Positions 33,303 to 63,682 of a stretch of 64,000 nucleotides of DNA are shown in pieces. Position numbers and translations under genes: made by a program. The stretch is from a virus (lineage: Duplodnaviria > Caudoviricetes), in the IMG/VR virus record IMGVR_UViG_642918906_000001, positions 96,001 through 160,000 of that record; one strand, given 5' to 3'. Every line of letters begins with the position of its first letter. The first letter of the stretch is position 1. The notes beneath the pieces are model-generated. The model ran no database searches and was not told the DNA's origin. It worked only from the letters and a program-made list of their open reading frames with translations.

Positions 33303-33430
33303 TTCGAATCCTTGTAAAAATAGTGGAGTGTATCGTGTATCATTATTAATACAAGTATTAGTTTGTAATGTAAATATAGCAATATCAATATGTAGAACTT
33401 TAACCCCTTTAAACCAATAGGTTGTGTACT

Positions 33431-33973
33431 ATGGTCCAACTGCTAGTATTACCTGAAGCTGTGTACGATCAGTACAAAGTAGACGGTGTCCAATTTAACA
33501 GATTGTTAGACACCAACTATATAGCTTGTCCTGACGTGAGTTCAGTCAATGATCTTGCACAGATTGACATTGCGTTGAATGAATTTCCCTTCGTGTTCTG
33601 CCCCGGTACTGGCATTGTCTTGGCCCACAGTCCACGAGTTGGCATTGCTATTGCATCGACTTCTGATGTCGAAAATAAGTTTATGATGCAAGATTTGCAT
33701 AATGCTTTAGAGGAACGCGTCGAAACGCTTTCGCTTCGCCTCGCTAACCAACCTAAGTTAGTAAGTGAATATTCCCTTTATCCTGTAGATGAGAATCTTT
33801 GGGTTGCGGTGCAGAAGAGTCTGCCTATCACCAATAGCGATCCTGAACGGTTAACTTTAATCAGTAACCGTACCTTCTTTGATAGCTTGATCTATGAGTT
33901 GCTGAGAACCTGCAAATTAAGTCAGGTAGCATCAACGAATCTCTTCAACTATTATCTTATGTCTAAGGTCTAG
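33431..33973 (+). CDS. Conserved hypothetical protein upstream of the capsid gene
   Basis: 180 aa from ATG 33431. Confidence 0.65.
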   Translation: MVQLLVLPEAVYDQYKVDGVQFNRLLDTNYIACPDVSSVNDLAQIDIALNEFPFVFCPGTGIVLAHSPRVGIAIASTSDVENKFMMQDLHNALEERVETLSLRLANQPKLVSEYSLYPVDENLWVAVQKSLPITNSDPERLTLISNRTFFDSLIYELLRTCKLSQVASTNLFNYYLMSKV

Positions 33974-34049
33974 TTCCGGTGAAAAATAGATCTTTCACAT
34001 TTAGATACTTGTTTAAAACCAAAACCCATCCTGCGTAGGAAATTAATTA

Positions 34050-36290
34050 ATGAAACATCTTAAATCTCTGAAGTCTGTATTTAAAGCTACTACTGACGCC
34101 CATCAAACTTTCTCGATGGAAGGTTTTGTAAGCGCCATGAAGAAAGAAGACGATCTGGCAGACGGTCTGTTCCAATCGGCTGAACGCGCTGCTGGTCTGA
34201 TCGACTCGATCGGTACTGAATCTTTCGGTTCTAAGCATGATGATGCACAAACTGCATCCAGCCTGTACAAGCAAATCTCGAAGATTGCTCGTGACTATGG
34301 TTTTGAACAATACCTGTCGGCTGACGAACGTGTTGCCGAAAACCAACTGACCGCTGCTGTTCTGGGTTCCCTGGCTGCAACCAACACCAGCAAATACATC
34401 AAAGCTCTGCGCGGTGTATCGAAAATCGTTCCGTCGACCGAAGACATCAAAACCATCACCCAGACCTATAGTGGTCCTGCTGGCGGTATGGATGTATTCA
34501 CTGGCGAAGAAACCAAAGCTGTAGCTCTGGAAAACTACAACGAAAAATCGCAACGTGACTTCCGCGTTGTTACCGTTGGTTATAACCTGGCTGCTTCCCG
34601 TCAGGACGAGTTCGCTGAACGTATCTACCCAACCACCGTTATCAACCCTATCGAGGGTGGTGTGGTTCAGGTTCTGCCATACATCGCTGTAATGAAGGAC
34701 GTTCACCACTCCGTGAACGGTGCTCGTTGGAAGAACGACGAAGTGAACATGGTTGAAGCATACCGTGATCCGTCGATCCTCGACGACAACGCTACCGACC
34801 TGATCCCAGCTATCGATCCAGCCGGTACCAACCTGCATTACTTCGCTGACCCAGCTCTGATCCCAGCTGAGACTGTTGTTAACGAACAAAACCTGTCGAT
34901 CGAAACCGCTCCTCTGAAGCCTGGTATTCGTCTGGACCTGATGGGTAACTCCAACGCTAACCTGCTGATTGCAGCTAACATGCTGGACGTTTCCGACACC
35001 ATCGACCCTGCTGGTCGTCTGAAAGCTCTGTACATCAAGTTCCAGGATAAAGTGATCAAGTTCAAAGTAGACCGCATGCCACGCGCTGTGTTCCAACCAG
35101 ACCTGATCGGTGATACCCGTGGTGCCAAAGTTGACTTCTGGACCGACGACCTGACTGTAAGCTCCGTAACTCGTACTATCGACGGCGTACAAACCGCTGC
35201 CATGTCCGAACTGGAAGCTCGTGGCTGGGTACTGCGTCTGAGCGTAGACTTCACTGGTAACATCTCCACTTCGAAAGGTGATTCCCGCTTCACCAATGGC
35301 GACGCTACTATTGCCAAGATCCTGAACGCTGACCGTCGCGAAATCGACATCACCGCAGGCGATGGTAAAGTACTGGCTGATACCATTACCGATCTGGAAA
35401 TCGTTGGTTTCGAACTGCAAGTTCGCTTCACTAACACTAACCGTCGTCAGCGCGGTCACCTGCTGCAAACTCGTGCTCTGCAATTCCGTCACCCAATCCC
35501 AATGCACGCTCCAGTGACTCTGCCACTGAGCACCATGGAAGATGAAGGTCCAGGTGAAGTTGTTAAAGCTCTGACTGTTAACACCAACATCCGTAACAGC
35601 AACAACGCTGTTAAGACTCTGTTGAACTACCTGGCTCAACTGCGTGAGCTGACCGGTAACGGCTTCAACCGTCCAGTCATCAACGTGTACGAAGGTGCTC
35701 TGGCCGCTGTAATGCGTCCTACCTACCACTACGACACCATGCATCTGCCAGACATGATCGACACCCTGAAGTCGAAAGACCGTTGGGACGACGTCTGCTC
35801 GGCCATCCTGAACAAAGTTAAAGGTATCCTGTTCCCAGCATACCGTAACTCGAACATCGAAGCTGCCTTCCGAGTAATCTCGGGTAACCAAGACGAGCGT
35901 CCGATCTTCCTGTTCTGCACCGACAAAGAAATCGCCAACTACCTGATGACTAAAGGCGACGACCGCACCCTGGGTGCTTACCTGGAATACGACATCGTAT
36001 CCACTAACAACGAACTGTTCGACGGTAAGTTGGTAGTAGTACCTACTCGTAAGACTCCAGTTGAGAACGACATCCTGAGCTTCGGTCAGTTCTTCTACGT
36101 ATCGACCATCATCGCTGACCTGCCTATCACTCGTGGTGGTAATCAGATCACTCGCGAAATCGCAGCTGTTCCATTCAACCTGCACATCAACAACGTTCCA
36201 TTCGCTCTCGAATTCGACGTTACTGGTTTCGAACAGGTAATGGGCCACTCGATGTGGAACAAACCAGTTGTAGACGCCCTGGGCGCTTGA
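34050..36290 (+). CDS. Major capsid protein (phiKZ gp120-like)
   Basis: 746 aa; strongest codon bias in the window; propeptide ending VALE/NYNEK; SRQDEFAE and RTNxNRRQRG-type conserved segments; synteny. Confidence 0.92.
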   Translation: MKHLKSLKSVFKATTDAHQTFSMEGFVSAMKKEDDLADGLFQSAERAAGLIDSIGTESFGSKHDDAQTASSLYKQISKIARDYGFEQYLSADERVAENQLTAAVLGSLAATNTSKYIKALRGVSKIVPSTEDIKTITQTYSGPAGGMDVFTGEETKAVALENYNEKSQRDFRVVTVGYNLAASRQDEFAERIYPTTVINPIEGGVVQVLPYIAVMKDVHHSVNGARWKNDEVNMVEAYRDPSILDDNATDLIPAIDPAGTNLHYFADPALIPAETVVNEQNLSIETAPLKPGIRLDLMGNSNANLLIAANMLDVSDTIDPAGRLKALYIKFQDKVIKFKVDRMPRAVFQPDLIGDTRGAKVDFWTDDLTVSSVTRTIDGVQTAAMSELEARGWVLRLSVDFTGNISTSKGDSRFTNGDATIAKILNADRREIDITAGDGKVLADTITDLEIVGFELQVRFTNTNRRQRGHLLQTRALQFRHPIPMHAPVTLPLSTMEDEGPGEVVKALTVNTNIRNSNNAVKTLLNYLAQLRELTGNGFNRPVINVYEGALAAVMRPTYHYDTMHLPDMIDTLKSKDRWDDVCSAILNKVKGILFPAYRNSNIEAAFRVISGNQDERPIFLFCTDKEIANYLMTKGDDRTLGAYLEYDIVSTNNELFDGKLVVVPTRKTPVENDILSFGQFFYVSTIIADLPITRGGNQITREIAAVPFNLHINNVPFALEFDVTGFEQVMGHSMWNKPVVDALGA

Positions 36291-36391
36291 ACTGGAAAGG
36301 GTGGATTCCGTTACATGGAAGATGGTACTACTGTCAGATATGAAGAAAGCGGGATTGCCCGCCGACTAGAGCGGTGACACTAGATCATACG

Positions 36392-36420
36392 GCCAGTCCT
36401 TCGGGACTGGCTTTATGTTG
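36392..36420 (+). terminator. Capsid-gene terminator
   Basis: GCCAGTCC-TTCG-GGACTGGC-TTTATGTTG, about 100 nt past the capsid stop. Confidence 0.85.
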
Positions 36421-36501
36421 TCTTATGGGGTAATACAAAATATTTGAGATTTATATCATTCATTTGATCTTAATATTAATCCTTAACCAAAGGACCCGAT
36501 T

Positions 36502-37020
36502 ATGAGCTTCTTAGCGAACTATTGGAAAGCCGTTGAACGAGCTGTATCTGAGACGGGAATGAATCCAGGGGATATCGTAATCGACATCACCACTGTTAGT
36601 AAAAATACTGACGTGCCTGATGTTGTAGAGTCCTTTGTTAATGATGTAACACAACCCCAACCTGAGCCGGCGCAAGCTGGTAATATGCCCCAACCCAAAA
36701 CTGACTTTGAGGCTAGGGAATCCCTGGCTAGGAGGTCGGCTAGACCAAGCCAAGGAATCGAAGAACTGGAAGAAAACTACGATACCAAAGCTACCACCAA
36801 CAAAACCCGCGTCAAACGAGATGTACGAGTACGTATGGACGAAAGAGATTCCGGGATCACCGTCAGTCCTAATCCGACGAAAGAAGAAAGACGCAAAACG
36901 CGTAAGGCGGAAAACAAGCGTTTAAAGAAACTCGGTGGAGGTAGAAAAGTGAGGTTGATTATTGACGAGGTACGTTTGAATGACAGAACTATATGGTCGC
37001 CACCCGGCGTTGACCGATGA
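36502..37020 (+). CDS. Hypothetical protein with basic C-terminus
   Basis: 172 aa; SD AAGGA; K/R-rich tail. Confidence 0.6.
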   Translation: MSFLANYWKAVERAVSETGMNPGDIVIDITTVSKNTDVPDVVESFVNDVTQPQPEPAQAGNMPQPKTDFEARESLARRSARPSQGIEELEENYDTKATTNKTRVKRDVRVRMDERDSGITVSPNPTKEERRKTRKAENKRLKKLGGGRKVRLIIDEVRLNDRTIWSPPGVDR

Positions 37021-38017
37021 CATCAAGCACATTGTTACACCAGGGCAACTACCTCGCCATCTGAATACATCGTTTAATAACAACAATGGTTTCAGCTCTG
37101 AAATGAAGTTTATCAATTCGAGTGGCTGGGATCTGTTGATATTGACAGCAGATGGTTTAAGGTTGCATAGTCCAGTCGGTTCTGGTAAATCAGATGGTAA
37201 CTGTTATTTCATGGTACGCTACAAACTAGGTGGTTACGTAGACCTAGACGTAAGTTGGCGTGCTGAGAATGAACCGTTGGTTAGACAGCAACTAGAAGAA
37301 ATCGAAAGACTAGTTTCGGCTTATCGGCAAGACCCTCTAACTGGTAGACCTACTTATCAGGAAGCGGTTATCGATTTTCACTATCGCGTAGAGTGTATTG
37401 AGTTAGATCATTACAAGCATGGTGTGTGGATTCCTGTACTAGGGATTCATCTGTTTCTATCAAATGGTCGAGACGCACTGTGTAAGCACTATGGTCGATC
37501 TATGTACACTGAAGTGATTGCGTTTAATAATGATTTCGCTAACCAAGAGGAGGTATCCCAGGCGACGGGATGTGGAGTCGTCTACTTTGTCAGTAACCCT
37601 ACTGAGAAAGATCCGATAATCATTAGTAATCGACACTTCAGTGGCGTAGTATTACCAACGTACGATCCCGGTCAAAAGCCTGGGGTTCATATCTACAATG
37701 TGGGGCAACGGAATGATACTACGAATAAGCAGTTAACTGACATCGTATTCATTCCAGTTATTGAGTTTGCAAAGAACGGCATTTATAGAAGTAAAGAAGA
37801 ACTGGAAGCAGCTCTAGATAACTTCGCTCGTAATATGAAAAATCAGAAAGACACAGTGGAATATAAAGAACTGCTTGAGAACATCCGACAAACATTCCCG
37901 GAGTTTTATAAGCGTTATGAAGTTCCTAGGAAGCCATTTGATTTGACTACGTTTATGACGGACGTTGTTGCGGGTATCGCAGCTGCCAGTAAGGTAAAAT
38001 CTGTAATAGGTGGTTAA
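36980..38017 (+). CDS. Conserved hypothetical protein (phiKZ gp122-like)
   Basis: 345 aa; SD GAGGT. Confidence 0.65.
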   Translation: MTELYGRHPALTDDIKHIVTPGQLPRHLNTSFNNNNGFSSEMKFINSSGWDLLILTADGLRLHSPVGSGKSDGNCYFMVRYKLGGYVDLDVSWRAENEPLVRQQLEEIERLVSAYRQDPLTGRPTYQEAVIDFHYRVECIELDHYKHGVWIPVLGIHLFLSNGRDALCKHYGRSMYTEVIAFNNDFANQEEVSQATGCGVVYFVSNPTEKDPIIISNRHFSGVVLPTYDPGQKPGVHIYNVGQRNDTTNKQLTDIVFIPVIEFAKNGIYRSKEELEAALDNFARNMKNQKDTVEYKELLENIRQTFPEFYKRYEVPRKPFDLTTFMTDVVAGIAAASKVKSVIGG

Positions 38018-44522: not shown

Positions 44523-44953
44523 CAGTTTTCAGTGTATTCTAACGTAATAGAATCTGAAGGGAGGTACGCTAAACAGGCAGGTGTAGTTGCAATAGTGACA
44601 GTAGGACCTGAGATATTACGATCCAAGAATTCATTATCACTTAAAGGTACACCCAACGTATCACGTAATACCTTTAGAACATCGTAGAATCTCTTGTACG
44701 AGCTAGACTTGCCTGGAACCTTAATACCCCTAAGGTCTTCACTCAATCGCCGCCTAACGTAGTACAGTGTTTGAACACCACCGAAGTTATTACTGTCGGC
44801 TCTAGCCACAATATTAATTCGGGAATTACATTGACCCTGTAACCAAATCTCAGGAACGCTAAAATTAACGTCAGCTGGTTGAATTGGAGGCTTAACCTTG
44901 TTAGCCGTATTAAAAGCGGTTAGTAAACTTTGTTTGATGTCAGTGCTTACCAT
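44522..44953 (-). CDS. Virion structural protein (phiKZ gp126-like)
   Basis: 143 aa from MVSTDIKQ; SD GAGGT; YYVRRRL motif of a paralog family. Confidence 0.6.
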   Translation of the reverse strand: MVSTDIKQSLLTAFNTANKVKPPIQPADVNFSVPEIWLQGQCNSRINIVARADSNNFGGVQTLYYVRRRLSEDLRGIKVPGKSSSYKRFYDVLKVLRDTLGVPLSDNEFLDRNISGPTVTIATTPACLAYLPSDSITLEYTEN

Positions 44954-44960
44954 GTTGACC

Positions 44961-45839
44961 TCAGTTATAGTGGAGCAGTAAATAACCACTCATGTTGTTA
45001 GCTAACCCACTGACCCGTAATACACACACCTGTTGAATGTCTTTACGTGGAGAGTACCGTGGCAACACGATGCCATTGTAAAGTACACTCAATCTAGCCT
45101 CACCTGAAATAACCTCACCGGCTATGTTCCAGTCCACCACTTCGGTACTACACACGAATGGATAAGTGGTAACATCATTAAGGATTGCTGCCAGCTTACG
45201 ACCACTCGGCCATACGGAAGCACTGGACAAGTCTTTGATGAATTCACGTTCATGGGTGAAATCAAAACCGCTAGTCGTAAACTGACTAACGATTTTACCA
45301 TCTACACTACCTAGAGGTCTAGGGTTAGCGGTGATGAGTTCTAATTTATCACCTACGTTGGCCAATAGCTGCTTAGTGGTATTGACCAGCTCGAATTGAA
45401 CTGATCCTACAAACCGCAATGACTTAGGTGACGCTGTCAGTGTATAGACACGTTGATATTCATCGTACTGTACATGGACAAAATCGTTCAATGTAAATAC
45501 GATGTCATTTAGTTCGCCAATAGCAGCGAGCACTTTAAACGTATTGGTAGGTAAAGCGAAGTCACTGAGTTGTTTGATAGCTGGACCCACAAAGAAACTC
45601 GCTAGGTCTAAACGATCGTAAACATAGTTCTCACGGGTAACCTCAGGTTGAGTGTTGTTTGGGTCGATGCTACGACGAGCATCAACCTCAATCTGTGTCC
45701 GTGTTCCACCCAAAGAAACCATCGATTTAAGTGTTGCGGTGTAAGGAGTCAAATCGGTGAGATACACTTCATTGATCCGATTGATCACAGCAACCCATGG
45801 GTCAGCTGCTAAATAGTCTTTTGTGCTATACATACTCAA
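44961..45839 (-). CDS. Virion structural protein (phiKZ gp127-like)
   Basis: 292 aa; YDRLDL and SLRFVGS motifs. Confidence 0.62.
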   Translation of the reverse strand: MSMYSTKDYLAADPWVAVINRINEVYLTDLTPYTATLKSMVSLGGTRTQIEVDARRSIDPNNTQPEVTRENYVYDRLDLASFFVGPAIKQLSDFALPTNTFKVLAAIGELNDIVFTLNDFVHVQYDEYQRVYTLTASPKSLRFVGSVQFELVNTTKQLLANVGDKLELITANPRPLGSVDGKIVSQFTTSGFDFTHEREFIKDLSSASVWPSGRKLAAILNDVTTYPFVCSTEVVDWNIAGEVISGEARLSVLYNGIVLPRYSPRKDIQQVCVLRVSGLANNMSGYLLLHYN

Positions 45840-63130: not shown

Positions 63131-63682
63131 ATGAGTGATCGTTTTCCCTACAACCTCCCATCGCGTGAGGCGCTTGTAGAACTGGTCCGCCGTTCTGAGA
63201 ATCGACCTGATCTGCGTGACAACTTTGTCACCTTTGAAGATCTGTTTTTCTCACCGACGCTAGTGGAACCCGGTAGAACTTATATTGAAATGGTCGACCT
63301 CATTACGAGTCATAAAGACTGGTTTGAGTTTCGACGTTTGGATCTTGCGGATAATCGGTGTCTTGGTCCAACGATTAATATTATCGTTCAAGGTAATGCC
63401 ACTCCAGCCAATATTGCGCTGGAAATCAACCGTTCACGTAAAATGTCTTTTGGTGAGAGCGACGTTTCGTTCTCCGACGAAGTGATCGCATATACAGGCG
63501 ATTCGTTTGATTACGATTTTACTGCTCTTTCTGGTAGCTACGCTTACTATGGTACAACCAAGGTTAAAGTTACAGTTGTCCCAACATCTCAATGGACACG
63601 CTACACCGAGAGTGATCTGATTCGTTATACTGAAGTTGGTGTTGAACGTGAACTCGAACACAAAGTAAGTAATTGGAGTTAA
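63131..63682 (+). CDS. Probable virion structural protein, gp126/127-family paralog with C-terminal RYxE repeat
   Basis: 183 aa; SD GAGGA; FRRLDL and GSYAYYG motifs; tail RYTESDLIRYTEVGVERELE. Confidence 0.65.
   Translation: MSDRFPYNLPSREALVELVRRSENRPDLRDNFVTFEDLFFSPTLVEPGRTYIEMVDLITSHKDWFEFRRLDLADNRCLGPTINIIVQGNATPANIALEINRSRKMSFGESDVSFSDEVIAYTGDSFDYDFTALSGSYAYYGTTKVKVTVVPTSQWTRYTESDLIRYTEVGVERELEHKVSNWS

What the first reader, a model, noticed from the sequence alone, without database searches (positions are those of the whole stretch)
36288..36377. Candidate stop-codon readthrough of the major capsid protein adding a 28-aa tag shared with another structural protein
Seen: the capsid gene ends GCT TGA ACT, while most high-expression genes here end in TAA. 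The frame stays open for 28 more codons (TGKGGFRYMEDGTTVRYEESGIARRLER, stop 36375-36377), and the terminator comes only at 36392. After a Gly-rich linker, the peptide aligns with the C-terminus of ORF 63131..63682: RYMEDGTTVRYEESGIARRLER vs RYTESDL-IRYTEVGVERELEH, 10 identities, pattern RYxE-x4/5-RYxExGxxRxLE. DNA similarity is weak, which points to selection on the protein. Known: UGA followed by A is leaky and is the context of Qbeta coat-protein readthrough, and many phages extend capsid proteins by recoding. Inference: some capsid subunits carry a docking tag also used by a second virion protein, a recoding-controlled decoration system I do not know for phiKZ-like phages. Alternative: a separate 20-aa micro-ORF from ATG 36315.
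Basis: partly seen in the sequence, partly recalled or inferred. Interest (0 to 1): 0.9.

Follow-up and report, generated by a model that had tools for sequence, protein, structure and literature searches.

The report
Capsid gene read-through adds fibre-docking tag
The major capsid gene of this phiKZ-like giant phage ends in a conserved leaky UGA stop followed in frame by a conserved short peptide that matches the tail of a fibre-family virion protein, so a few capsid subunits probably carry a docking tag made by stop-codon read-through.

Summary
The capsid gene (34050-36287) ends in TGA (36288-36290). 28 in-frame codons follow, then a stop (36375-36377) and a terminator (36391-36412).

In this genome alone an open frame of that length is ordinary: 114 of 366 ORFs have one. 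Comparison changes this. Among 51 unique chimallivirus capsid genes:
- 28 carry a conserved in-frame extension, and all 28 end in TGA.
- 22 carry no extension, and all 22 end in TAA.
- 1 (L051) ends in TGA before an in-frame Ig-like ORF.

The other two frames hold stops. 12 of 20 relatives have no in-frame start codon. Conserved Arg/Glu/Gly columns use 2-5 synonymous codons.

The extension is three R..E[DN]G.. repeats. The same motif ends the gp143-like DUF7941 protein (63131-63682). A profile built only from capsid extensions hits the C-tail of 30 of 49 such proteins.

Goslar, Moabite-like, Ea277G and FLC9 phages have a different extension after TGA. Each best matches a DUF7941 linker or tail of its own phage.

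Best reading: programmed UGA read-through makes a minor capsid isoform that displays a DUF7941-type docking peptide. My searches found no publication of this. Translation itself is not shown.

The parts
34050..36287 (+). Major capsid protein gene (phiKZ gp120 family), 746 codons
   Evidence: Pfam PhiKZ_MCP PF25620, E 1.1e-226; 94% identical to the phage Viktualia major head protein
36288..36290 (+). Conserved UGA stop, the proposed read-through site
   Evidence: TGA in 28 of 28 unique capsid genes that carry an extension. TAA in 22 of 23 that carry none. No suppressor tRNA in the genome: the only tRNA is Leu-taa
36291..36374 (+). In-frame 28-codon extension: a Gly-rich linker plus three R..E.G.. 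repeats (the last is truncated, R.LE)
   Evidence: Frame 0 is open in 20 of 20 unique relatives; frame +1 has stops in 20 of 20 and frame +2 in 16 of 20. Invariant R, E and G columns use 2-5 synonymous codons; dN/dS 0.48. Alignments
36375..36377 (+). Second stop (TGA) that ends the extension
   Evidence: relatives end with TAA, TGA or TAG at the equivalent place
36308..36352 (+). Possible conserved RNA hairpin, a 5-bp helix starting about 17 nt after the UGA (inconclusive)
   Evidence: RNAalifold helix, columns 27-31 with 67-71. 95% of cells paired and 7 double-change cells, against 0 of 500 shuffles. But the paired bases are conserved Arg/Gly codons and the structure was derived from the same sequences. 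Single-sequence z-score -1.93
36391..36422 (+). Intrinsic terminator of the capsid transcript
   Evidence: Terminator scan. The hairpin is conserved with compensatory changes in relatives. RNA contigs of four runs on the phiKZ-type locus end in this region
63131..63682 (+). gp143-like DUF7941 protein (annotated as a virion structural protein in relatives; reported as a holin regulator in phiKZ)
   Evidence: Homologue of phiKZ gp143. DUF7941 matched by 26 of 49 homologues at E <= 0.01, and by the window's own copy at 17.5 bits, below the cut-off of 27. AF2 model pLDDT 85; best PDB fold match is 9xqd, a phiKZ peripheral baseplate chain, E 7e-7
63593..63661 (+). C-terminal repeat tag of the gp143-like protein (residues 155-177), the same module as the capsid extension
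   Evidence: R157, R165 and R173 are invariant in 49 homologues. Joint alignment. A regex and a joint profile find only these two sites in all six frames of the genome
44531..45797 (-). Two further DUF7941 genes (positions of phiKZ gp126/gp127 type). Their N-terminal domains are candidate receptors for the tag
   Evidence: PF25613 matches at genome 140531-140950 and 140964-141797, E 1.9e-13 and 3.5e-20. Not studied further

Best explanation
The UGA that ends the major capsid gene is a programmed leaky stop.

How it works. Most ribosomes terminate there. A minority read UGA as a sense codon, most likely through the host's near-cognate tRNA-Trp, because the phage has no suppressor tRNA. Those ribosomes add 28 residues: a Gly-rich linker and three 8-9-residue repeats of the form R..E[DN]G...

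Where the tag sits. In phiKZ and Goslar the capsid C-terminus lies at the centre of each hexamer, and in pentamers it touches an outer decoration protein. The tag would therefore protrude from capsomer centres on a small fraction of the roughly 1,600 subunits.

What the tag is. It is the same module that follows the N-terminal domain of the gp143-like DUF7941 protein. In DUF7941 proteins that segment has been proposed, from AlphaFold models and filament formation by Goslar gp22, to dock onto the N-terminal domain of the next protomer. I therefore propose that the read-through tag is a docking peptide that recruits DUF7941 proteins (gp143-like, possibly gp126/127-like) to the capsid. The UGA would set the number of attachment sites.

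Shown: conservation of the UGA, the frame and the peptide; the shared module; the co-variation with DUF7941 linkers in other chimalliviruses.
Inferred: the translation itself, Trp insertion, the outward exposure, and the docking partner.

My odds: a functional read-through extension about 0.85; docking of DUF7941 N-terminal domains about 0.45. The confidence given for this entry (0.7) is for the core claim: a functional read-through extension that shares a module with DUF7941 proteins.
For: (1): 20 of 20 relatives' loci (61-94% capsid identity) have TGA followed by an in-frame 25-30-codon extension with the motif. add D6, L049, L053 and L058.

(2): of 51 unique capsid genes, 23 have the type A extension and TGA, 5 have the type B extension and TGA, 22 have no extension and TAA, and 1 has no extension and TGA. 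The trait changes 7 times on the tree. In 5 independent pairs on supported branches the stop codon changes the same way in about 4.9 and never the opposite way.

(3): only frame 0 is open (0 of 20 with a stop, against 20 of 20 and 16 of 20 in the other frames). 12 of 20 lack any in-frame ATG, GTG or TTG.

(4): the invariant R, E and G columns use 2-5 synonymous codons, including AGR and CGN for Arg. dN/dS is 0.48.

(5): the tag is shared with the gp143 family. A capsid-only profile hits the C-tail of 30 of 49 members at i-E <= 0.01, and in all 30 the hit ends within 12 residues of the C-terminus.

(6): Goslar, Ea277G, FLC9 and four Moabite-like phages have TGA followed by a different conserved in-frame extension; among ORFs of its own DUF7941 loci, each extension's best match lies in the post-domain linker or the C-tail of a DUF7941 protein. 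Scores: Goslar gp23 55, 0 of 200 shuffles; Ea277G 40, 0 of 200; Moabite 37, 3 of 200; FLC9 37, 3 of 200.

(7): tblastn of the Moabite capsid end read through the stop aligns across the stop in one piece in 13 of 29 records.

(8): RNA contigs from 4 runs cover the phiKZ-type capsid 3' end through the extension and stop near the terminator.

(9) Papers, passages read. phiKZ C-arm residues 728-747 form a central six-helix bundle, and in pentamers they contact the outer protein gp244 (PMC11297242). Goslar C-arms form a barrel at the hexon centre, a C-terminal GFP fusion of the capsid protein localises like capsids, and DUF7941 linkers are predicted to dock on the next N-terminal domain while gp22 forms filaments (10.64898/2026.04.21.720040).
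Against: - No proteomic, ribosome-profiling or reporter evidence for the extended protein could be reached.
- Published phiKZ and Goslar capsid models end at the annotated C-terminus and report no extra density there (passages read). A minor flexible tag would be averaged out, so this is weak evidence.
- The sign test on independent contrasts gives only p = 0.0625, the lowest value 5 pairs allow.
- dN/dS of the whole extension (0.48) is higher than that of the capsid's last 40 codons (0.21).
- The base after UGA is not fixed: A or G, and C in L058.
- gp143 homologues keep the tag in 7 genomes whose capsid gene has no extension, so the two tags do not strictly co-occur.
- The window's own gp143-like tail is too diverged for the capsid-only profile (i-E 200).
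- For phiKZ gp143 a different role is reported: a cytoplasmic holin regulator, non-essential by TnSeq (PMC12894885 and 10.1101/2025.11.23.690004, passages).
- The isolated tag folds with low confidence (pLDDT 59).
- No stimulatory RNA element is established.
Confidence: 0.7

Rival explanations
1. The extension is translated and functional, but it is not a DUF7941-domain docking site. Either the repeat is a self-associating or general adaptor module (tag-to-tag pairing with gp143 tails or with other tagged proteins), or it ties capsid protein accumulation to lysis timing through gp143, the reported holin regulator.
For: - The repeat occurs in 183 proteins at E <= 1e-3, among them unrelated large proteins with the repeat at the very C-terminus. 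It also occurs as a linker before a Phage_cement_2 capsid-binding domain.
- phiKZ gp143 alters holin timing (PMC12894885, passages).
- gp143 homologues keep the tag where the capsid gene lacks it.
- In the AF2 model of the gp143-like protein the tag shows periodic beta bridges, and the isolated tag folds as a hairpin, which fits a small self-structured sheet.
Against: In Goslar-type phages the capsid extension follows that phage's own DUF7941 linker motif, which is unrelated in sequence to the Pseudomonas-clade repeat. This points to a DUF7941-specific partner rather than a universal adaptor. No test of any binding was possible.
Confidence: 0.25
2. The peptide is a separate micro-protein, started at ATG 36315 or by re-initiation after termination at the UGA, and is not an extension of the capsid protein.
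For: The window has an in-frame ATG at codon 9 of the extension.
Against: - 12 of 20 unique relatives have no in-frame ATG, GTG or TTG. Where one exists it lies at codon 9, 16, 17, 21 or 29, and so would cut off the first conserved repeat.
- The frame relative to the capsid gene is kept in all 28 unique extension-bearing genes despite codon indels.
- The stop is always TGA. A separate gene would explain neither fact.
Confidence: 0.04
3. The stretch is not translated. It is a cis-acting RNA or DNA element in front of the terminator, or a decaying copy of the 3' end of a gp143-like gene.
For: - A weakly supported hairpin lies inside the extension.
- The sequence just upstream of the terminator is strongly conserved at nucleotide level among close relatives.
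- In a single genome the open frame is not unusual.
Against: - Amino-acid-level conservation with synonymous codon turnover, including AGR/CGN Arg switches.
- Frame 0 is open in 20 of 20 while the other frames are closed.
- The motif persists down to 46-55% capsid identity.
- An unrelated peptide sits at the same place in Goslar-type phages and again matches their own proteins.
- No Rfam family matches.
Confidence: 0.04
4. The UGA is decoded by a dedicated recoding system such as selenocysteine insertion, not by near-cognate leakiness.
For: A hairpin-like element lies downstream of the UGA. That many Pseudomonas strains have selenocysteine machinery is recalled, not tested.
Against: - No known RNA family matches.
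- The helix is weak, starts about 17 nt after the UGA, and is confounded by codon constraints.
- The hosts span several genera.
- The genome has no tRNA other than Leu.
Confidence: 0.02

Closest known systems
Qbeta coat protein read-through protein A1 (recalled from general knowledge, not from a call)
   Same: A leaky UGA at the end of the major coat gene gives a minor C-terminally extended coat subunit that is built into the virion. The stop codon sets the ratio.
   Different: Qbeta is a small ssRNA phage, and its extension is a large domain needed for infection. Here the phage is a dsDNA jumbo phage with a T=27 HK97-fold capsid, and the extension is a 16-30-residue peptide that copies the linker or tail of another virion protein family.
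Capsid or tail proteins of dsDNA phages extended by programmed frameshifting: T7 10A/10B, Listeria phages A118/PSA, Ig-like domains added by frameshift (recalled; PMC5009743 seen only as a search listing)
   Same: Recoding at the 3' end of a major structural gene yields a fixed minority of subunits with an extra surface-exposed C-terminal part.
   Different: Those cases use -1 or +1 frameshifts. This one uses in-frame stop read-through. The added part here is a docking-type peptide, not a folded domain. One relative (L051) may add a Big_2 domain.
DUF7941 head-to-tail filament model (Goslar preprint 10.64898/2026.04.21.720040; section 12 read)
   Same: The segment right after the DUF7941 N-terminal domain is proposed to dock on the N-terminal domain of the next protomer. 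The capsid extensions match exactly that segment.
   Different: The preprint anchors the filaments at the peripheral baseplate. In the passages and terms I searched it mentions no capsid-borne copy of the linker and no read-through ('readthrough' and 'stop codon': 0 occurrences).
T4 Hoc, a decoration protein at the centre of capsid hexamers (recalled)
   Same: An accessory element displayed at hexamer centres on the outside of a large capsid.
   Different: Hoc is a separate protein that binds after assembly. Here the display element is part of a minority of capsid subunits and is made by recoding.

Membership tests
Programmed stop-codon read-through | The stop codon identity is conserved and the downstream frame stays open in relatives | tested here: met
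   28 of 28 unique extension-bearing capsid genes end in TGA. Frame 0 is open in 20 of 20 while the other frames are closed
Programmed stop-codon read-through | The extension is under protein-level selection and has no start of its own | tested here: met
   Synonymous codon turnover at invariant R, E and G columns; dN/dS 0.48. 12 of 20 have no in-frame start codon
Programmed stop-codon read-through | The extended protein is detected, or ribosomes are seen beyond the stop | not testable with these tools
   Only assembled RNA contigs were available. Paper supplements with mass-spectrometry tables are closed
Programmed stop-codon read-through | A stimulatory context or downstream RNA structure | tested here: inconclusive
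   The next base is A or G, once C. A 5-bp helix shows some covariation but is confounded by codons. Rfam finds nothing
PhiKZ_MCP (PF25620) | Pfam profile match above the gathering score | tested here: met
   754 bits against a cut-off of 27
DUF7941 (PF25613), for ORF 63131..63682 | Pfam profile match above the gathering score | tested here: inconclusive
   The window's copy scores 17.5 bits against a cut-off of 27 (E 0.003). 26 of 49 homologues match at E <= 0.01, best 7.5e-7. The Goslar preprint lists phiKZ gp143 as DUF7941
DUF7941 (PF25613), for ORF 63131..63682 | The fold of the N-terminal domain matches a solved DUF7941 protein | tested here: met
   Foldseek best hit is 9xqd_0, the phiKZ outer peripheral baseplate, E 7.4e-7, TM 0.56/0.67. 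That the chain is gp127 is taken from the preprint's legend, which writes the PDB code as 9QXD, so the match of entries is assumed
DUF7941 linker docking peptide, for the capsid extension | Sequence likeness to the post-domain segment of DUF7941 proteins of the same phage | tested here: met
   Pseudomonas clade. Goslar, Ea277G, Moabite and FLC9: (0, 0, 3 and 3 of 200 shuffles reach the score)
DUF7941 linker docking peptide, for the capsid extension | Binds a DUF7941 N-terminal domain | not testable with these tools
Selenocysteine recoding | A SECIS-type element directly after the UGA | tested here: not met
   No Rfam match. Only a weak helix, about 17 nt downstream

The most novel reading that the evidence does not exclude
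Across Chimalliviridae, low-level UGA read-through of the major capsid gene installs a copy of the phage's own DUF7941 linker peptide on scattered capsomers. These tags would be the missing anchors, or seeds, for the hundreds to thousands of unmodelled DUF7941 subunits per virion, giving a capsid-borne fibre coat whose density is set by the leakiness of one stop codon. Tag and fibre domain co-evolve: the R..EDG repeats in Pseudomonas phages and the ..L.GF..P motif in Goslar, Moabite, PhiEaH1-like and FLC9 phages. Lineages that gave up the coat switched the stop to TAA.
Probability: 0.4. Interest if true: 0.85.

Novelty: new variant of a known kind. Interest (0 to 1): 0.82.

Why it matters
phiKZ and Goslar are the model nucleus-forming jumbo phages. 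Their capsids have been solved at 3.5 Å and their virions studied by mass spectrometry. Yet in the passages and searches I made, nobody reports that the capsid gene is recoded.

If this is true:
- It adds a hidden capsid isoform to these models.
- It is a case of stop-codon read-through in a structural gene of a dsDNA tailed phage.
- It offers a concrete attachment site for the abundant DUF7941 fibre proteins, whose anchoring is an open question in the Goslar preprint.
- It gives an explanation for gp143 being found in virions.
- Genome annotation would benefit: the extension is unannotated, or miscalled in another frame as in phage Viktualia.
- The hexamer-centre tag would be a natural display site for phage engineering.

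Tried and rejected
- A profile of the capsid extensions alone, run against all six frames of the genome, found only itself. The next hits, near genome 264.3-264.5 kb, are off-frame chance matches inside a gene.
- I looked for capsid proteins with the tag fused through a sense codon. A region search gave 6 capsid proteins among 83 candidates, and none covers the extension. The 790-aa and 826-aa hits of the profile search have no Pfam match, PhiKZ_MCP included.
- PDB sequence searches with the gp143 family and with the phiKZ-type tag found no relevant chain.
- Rfam: nothing relevant.
- RNA runs are available only as assembled contigs. They show that the extension lies on capsid-gene RNA and that the consensus has no other letter at the TGA. 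They cannot show translation, level or rare variants.
- I asked whether the gp143 tag and the capsid tag co-occur. They do not strictly: 7 genomes with a TAA capsid gene keep the gp143-type tag.
- I considered counting L051 (TGA plus an in-frame Big_2 ORF) as a third read-through type. It is left ambiguous because an ATG lies at codon 3.
- Literature searches found no report of capsid read-through. Terms tried: phiKZ + readthrough + major capsid protein; gp120 + phiKZ + stop codon (0 papers); jumbo phage + capsid + translational readthrough; stop codon readthrough + bacteriophage + capsid protein + UGA. The search for the motif letters returned only irrelevant papers.
- Paper supplements were closed. 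The Goslar Table S4 and the phiKZ virion mass-spectrometry tables might bear on whether extension peptides exist.
Full report
**What is in the window**

The ORF 34050..36290 encodes a 746-residue protein of the phiKZ gp120 major capsid family (Pfam PhiKZ_MCP, E 1.1e-226). The gp119-like vertex protein gene lies just upstream (33422..33973). The capsid gene ends GCT TGA ACT, with the stop at 36288-36290. The same frame stays open for 28 codons (36291-36374) up to a second TGA (36375-36377). A terminator-like hairpin follows at 36391-36412. The window is bases 96001-160000 of a 316,674-bp phage genome. The closest named relative is Pseudomonas phage Viktualia, 94% capsid identity.

**Chance in one genome**

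- 114 of 366 long ORFs in this genome have 28 or more open codons after their stop.
- 104 of 366 end in TGA.
- The pairwise likeness to the C-terminus of ORF 63131..63682 scores 42. Only 1 of 2000 shuffles reaches that, but another of the 1,514 six-frame segments ties it.

**Relatives change the picture**

- In 20 of 20 relatives' loci first examined (61-94% capsid identity), the capsid gene ends in TGA and is followed in frame by 25-30 codons. These include phiKZ, PS119XW, a record the size of PhiPA3 and one the size of Psa21. The layout is always the same: a short Gly- or Pro-rich linker, then R..E[DN]G.., R..E[DS]G..., R.LE, then a stop, then the terminator.
- Phage D6 and three more distant metagenomic relatives (46-55% identity) have it too.
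- Among 20 unique sequences, frame 0 never contains a stop. Frame +1 does in 20 of 20 and frame +2 in 16 of 20. 12 of 20 have no in-frame ATG, GTG or TTG, and the others have one at varying positions. This removes the micro-ORF alternative.
- Length differences are whole codons.
- The invariant Arg, Glu and Gly columns are written with 2-5 different codons, including AGR/CGN switches for Arg. dN/dS over the whole extension is 0.48, against 0.21 for the last 40 capsid codons.
- The genome has one tRNA (Leu-taa) and no suppressor.

**Stop codon and extension go together**

I collected 51 unique capsid genes of the family, from phage records and IMG/VR.

| Extension | Stop | Count |
|---|---|---|
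| Repeat type (A) | TGA | 23 |
| Second type (B) | TGA | 5 |
| None | TAA | 22 |
| None (L051) | TGA | 1 |

In L051 the TGA precedes an in-frame 203-codon ORF with a Big_2 domain and an ATG at its third codon. On the capsid tree the extension changes state 7 times. In the 5 independent pairs on well-supported branches, the stop changes the same way in about 4.9 and never the other way. With 5 pairs, p cannot fall below 0.0625. Two apparent losses inside the Pseudomonas-type clade (L050, L054) both carry TAA.

**The shared tag**

ORF 63131..63682 is the homologue of phiKZ gp143.
- In 49 homologues the last ~25 residues read R..E[DN]G..R..E.G..R.LE, with all three Arg invariant.
- The capsid extensions and the gp143 tails align column for column.
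- A profile built from capsid extensions only detects the C-tail of 30 of 49 gp143-like proteins at i-E <= 0.01, calibrated to one genome's six-frame set. In all 30 the hit ends within 12 residues of the C-terminus. The window's own, more diverged copy is not detected.
- In the window's genome, a motif regex and a joint profile find only these two places in six frames.
- The gp143-like protein models as a globular domain (residues 1-150, pLDDT about 90) followed by the tag (pLDDT about 77, periodic beta bridges).
- Its only significant PDB fold match is a chain of the phiKZ outer peripheral baseplate (9xqd, E 7e-7).
- 26 of 49 homologues match Pfam DUF7941.

**A second, independent version**

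Goslar is a distant chimallivirus of E. coli. Its capsid gene also ends in TGA-A, followed in frame by 26 codons and a terminator. That extension has no R..EDG repeats. Instead it matches the C-terminal tail of Goslar gp23, a DUF7941 protein, with a local score of 55 that 0 of 200 shuffles reach (null maximum 46). It also resembles the segment after the N-terminal domain in gp22, gp31, gp33 and gp34.

The same holds elsewhere.
- Erwinia phage Ea277G: score 40, 0 of 200 shuffles.
- Serratia phage Moabite: score 37, 3 of 200.
- Burkholderia phage FLC9: score 37, 3 of 200.
- In four Moabite-type phages the extension is conserved after TGA while the capsid residues just before the stop vary.
- tblastn of the Moabite capsid end read through the stop aligns across the stop in one piece in 13 of 29 records. 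It stops short in the FBKp24-like Klebsiella phages, whose gene ends in TAA.

So the capsid extension tracks the DUF7941 linker of the same phage lineage.

**What the literature adds** (passages read, not whole papers)

- phiKZ gp120 is modelled to residue 747. Its C-terminal arms form a six-helix bundle at the hexamer centre, and in pentamers they contact the outer protein gp244 (PMC11297242).
- In Goslar the C-arms form a barrel at the hexon centre, the capsid holds 1,615 subunits, and a C-terminal GFP fusion of the capsid protein behaves like capsids (preprint 10.64898/2026.04.21.720040).
- The same preprint reports about 2,140 copies of gp23 and about 580 of gp22 per virion that are not in the model. 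It reports AlphaFold predictions that the DUF7941 linker docks on the next protomer's N-terminal domain, and filaments of purified gp22. It proposes anchoring at the baseplate.
- phiKZ gp143 is reported to modulate holin timing and to be non-essential (PMC12894885 and 10.1101/2025.11.23.690004).
- The 2026 phiKZ structural atlas does not mention gp143 or read-through (PMC13250141).
- Four literature searches found no report of capsid read-through in these phages.

**Mechanism proposed**

A minority of ribosomes read the UGA and add the tag. Near-cognate Trp insertion is inferred. The tag would emerge at capsomer centres. At 1-5% read-through this gives roughly 16-80 tags per capsid (arithmetic on 1,615 subunits). 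Because the tag copies the DUF7941 docking segment, it would recruit DUF7941 N-terminal domains to the head. Candidates are the gp143-like protein and perhaps the two DUF7941 genes at 44531-45797. The invariable TGA, and the absence of any sense-codon fusion among the hits I could examine, suggest that a low ratio is what is selected.

**Other uses of the repeat**

The repeat is also used elsewhere as a terminal or linker element. 183 proteins match at E <= 1e-3 among 1.84 billion representatives. One has the repeat between a glycosidase-like part and a capsid cement domain. Another has it right after a DUF7941 N-terminal domain. This fits an attachment role, but it leaves a more general adaptor function open.

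**Limits**

- No direct evidence of the extended protein.
- Only assembled RNA contigs were available.
- A candidate downstream hairpin is inconclusive.
- The gp143 tag exists in genomes without a capsid tag.
- The number of independent evolutionary contrasts is small.

Noticed in passing
L051:2963-3574 (IMG/VR contig, capsid relative with 52% identity): The capsid gene ends in TGA-A and is followed in frame by a 203-codon ORF that starts with a Big_2 Ig-like domain (E 4e-9). Sister sequences L052 and L063 end in TAA with nothing downstream. An ATG at codon 3, with a very short spacing to a Shine-Dalgarno-like AAGGG, leaves it open whether this is a separate decoration gene or a second kind of read-through product.
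   Followed up: partly
L001:2072-2170 (phage Viktualia record): The record annotates a 32-codon 'hypothetical protein' that overlaps the capsid gene end in the +1 frame. The frame conserved among relatives is the capsid frame, so this call is probably spurious and the real extension is unannotated.
   Followed up: partly
proteins P0080-P0229: R.LE[DN]G-type repeats occur in 183 database proteins at E <= 1e-3. Among them: arrays of 4-9 repeats, many 44-70-residue ORFs that end in the repeat, large unrelated proteins with the repeat at the extreme C-terminus (one has a PASTA domain), and one protein with the repeat between a glycosidase-like region and a Phage_cement_2 domain. No Pfam family covers the repeat itself in the ten proteins I scanned.
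   Followed up: partly
L069 and L070 (genome G008): One relative carries two gp143-like genes about 3 kb apart. One keeps the three Arg of the tag; the other has a degenerate tag without them.
   Followed up: no
window 34047..36248, minus strand: A 733-codon open frame runs antisense to almost the whole capsid gene. It is probably a by-product of the gene's codon usage. Not examined.
   Followed up: no
window 36412-36422 and the aligned relatives (alignment A5, columns about 152-162): Directly after the terminator stem, a GCTTTATG-like stretch is kept in most relatives, beyond what a plain U-tract needs.
   Followed up: no
genome G000 300263-300349 (outside the window): The 316-kb genome encodes a single tRNA (Leu, anticodon taa).
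   Followed up: no
window 36502..37020 and 36980..38017: The two genes after the capsid terminator (positions of phiKZ gp121 and gp122) have no Pfam match.
   Followed up: no
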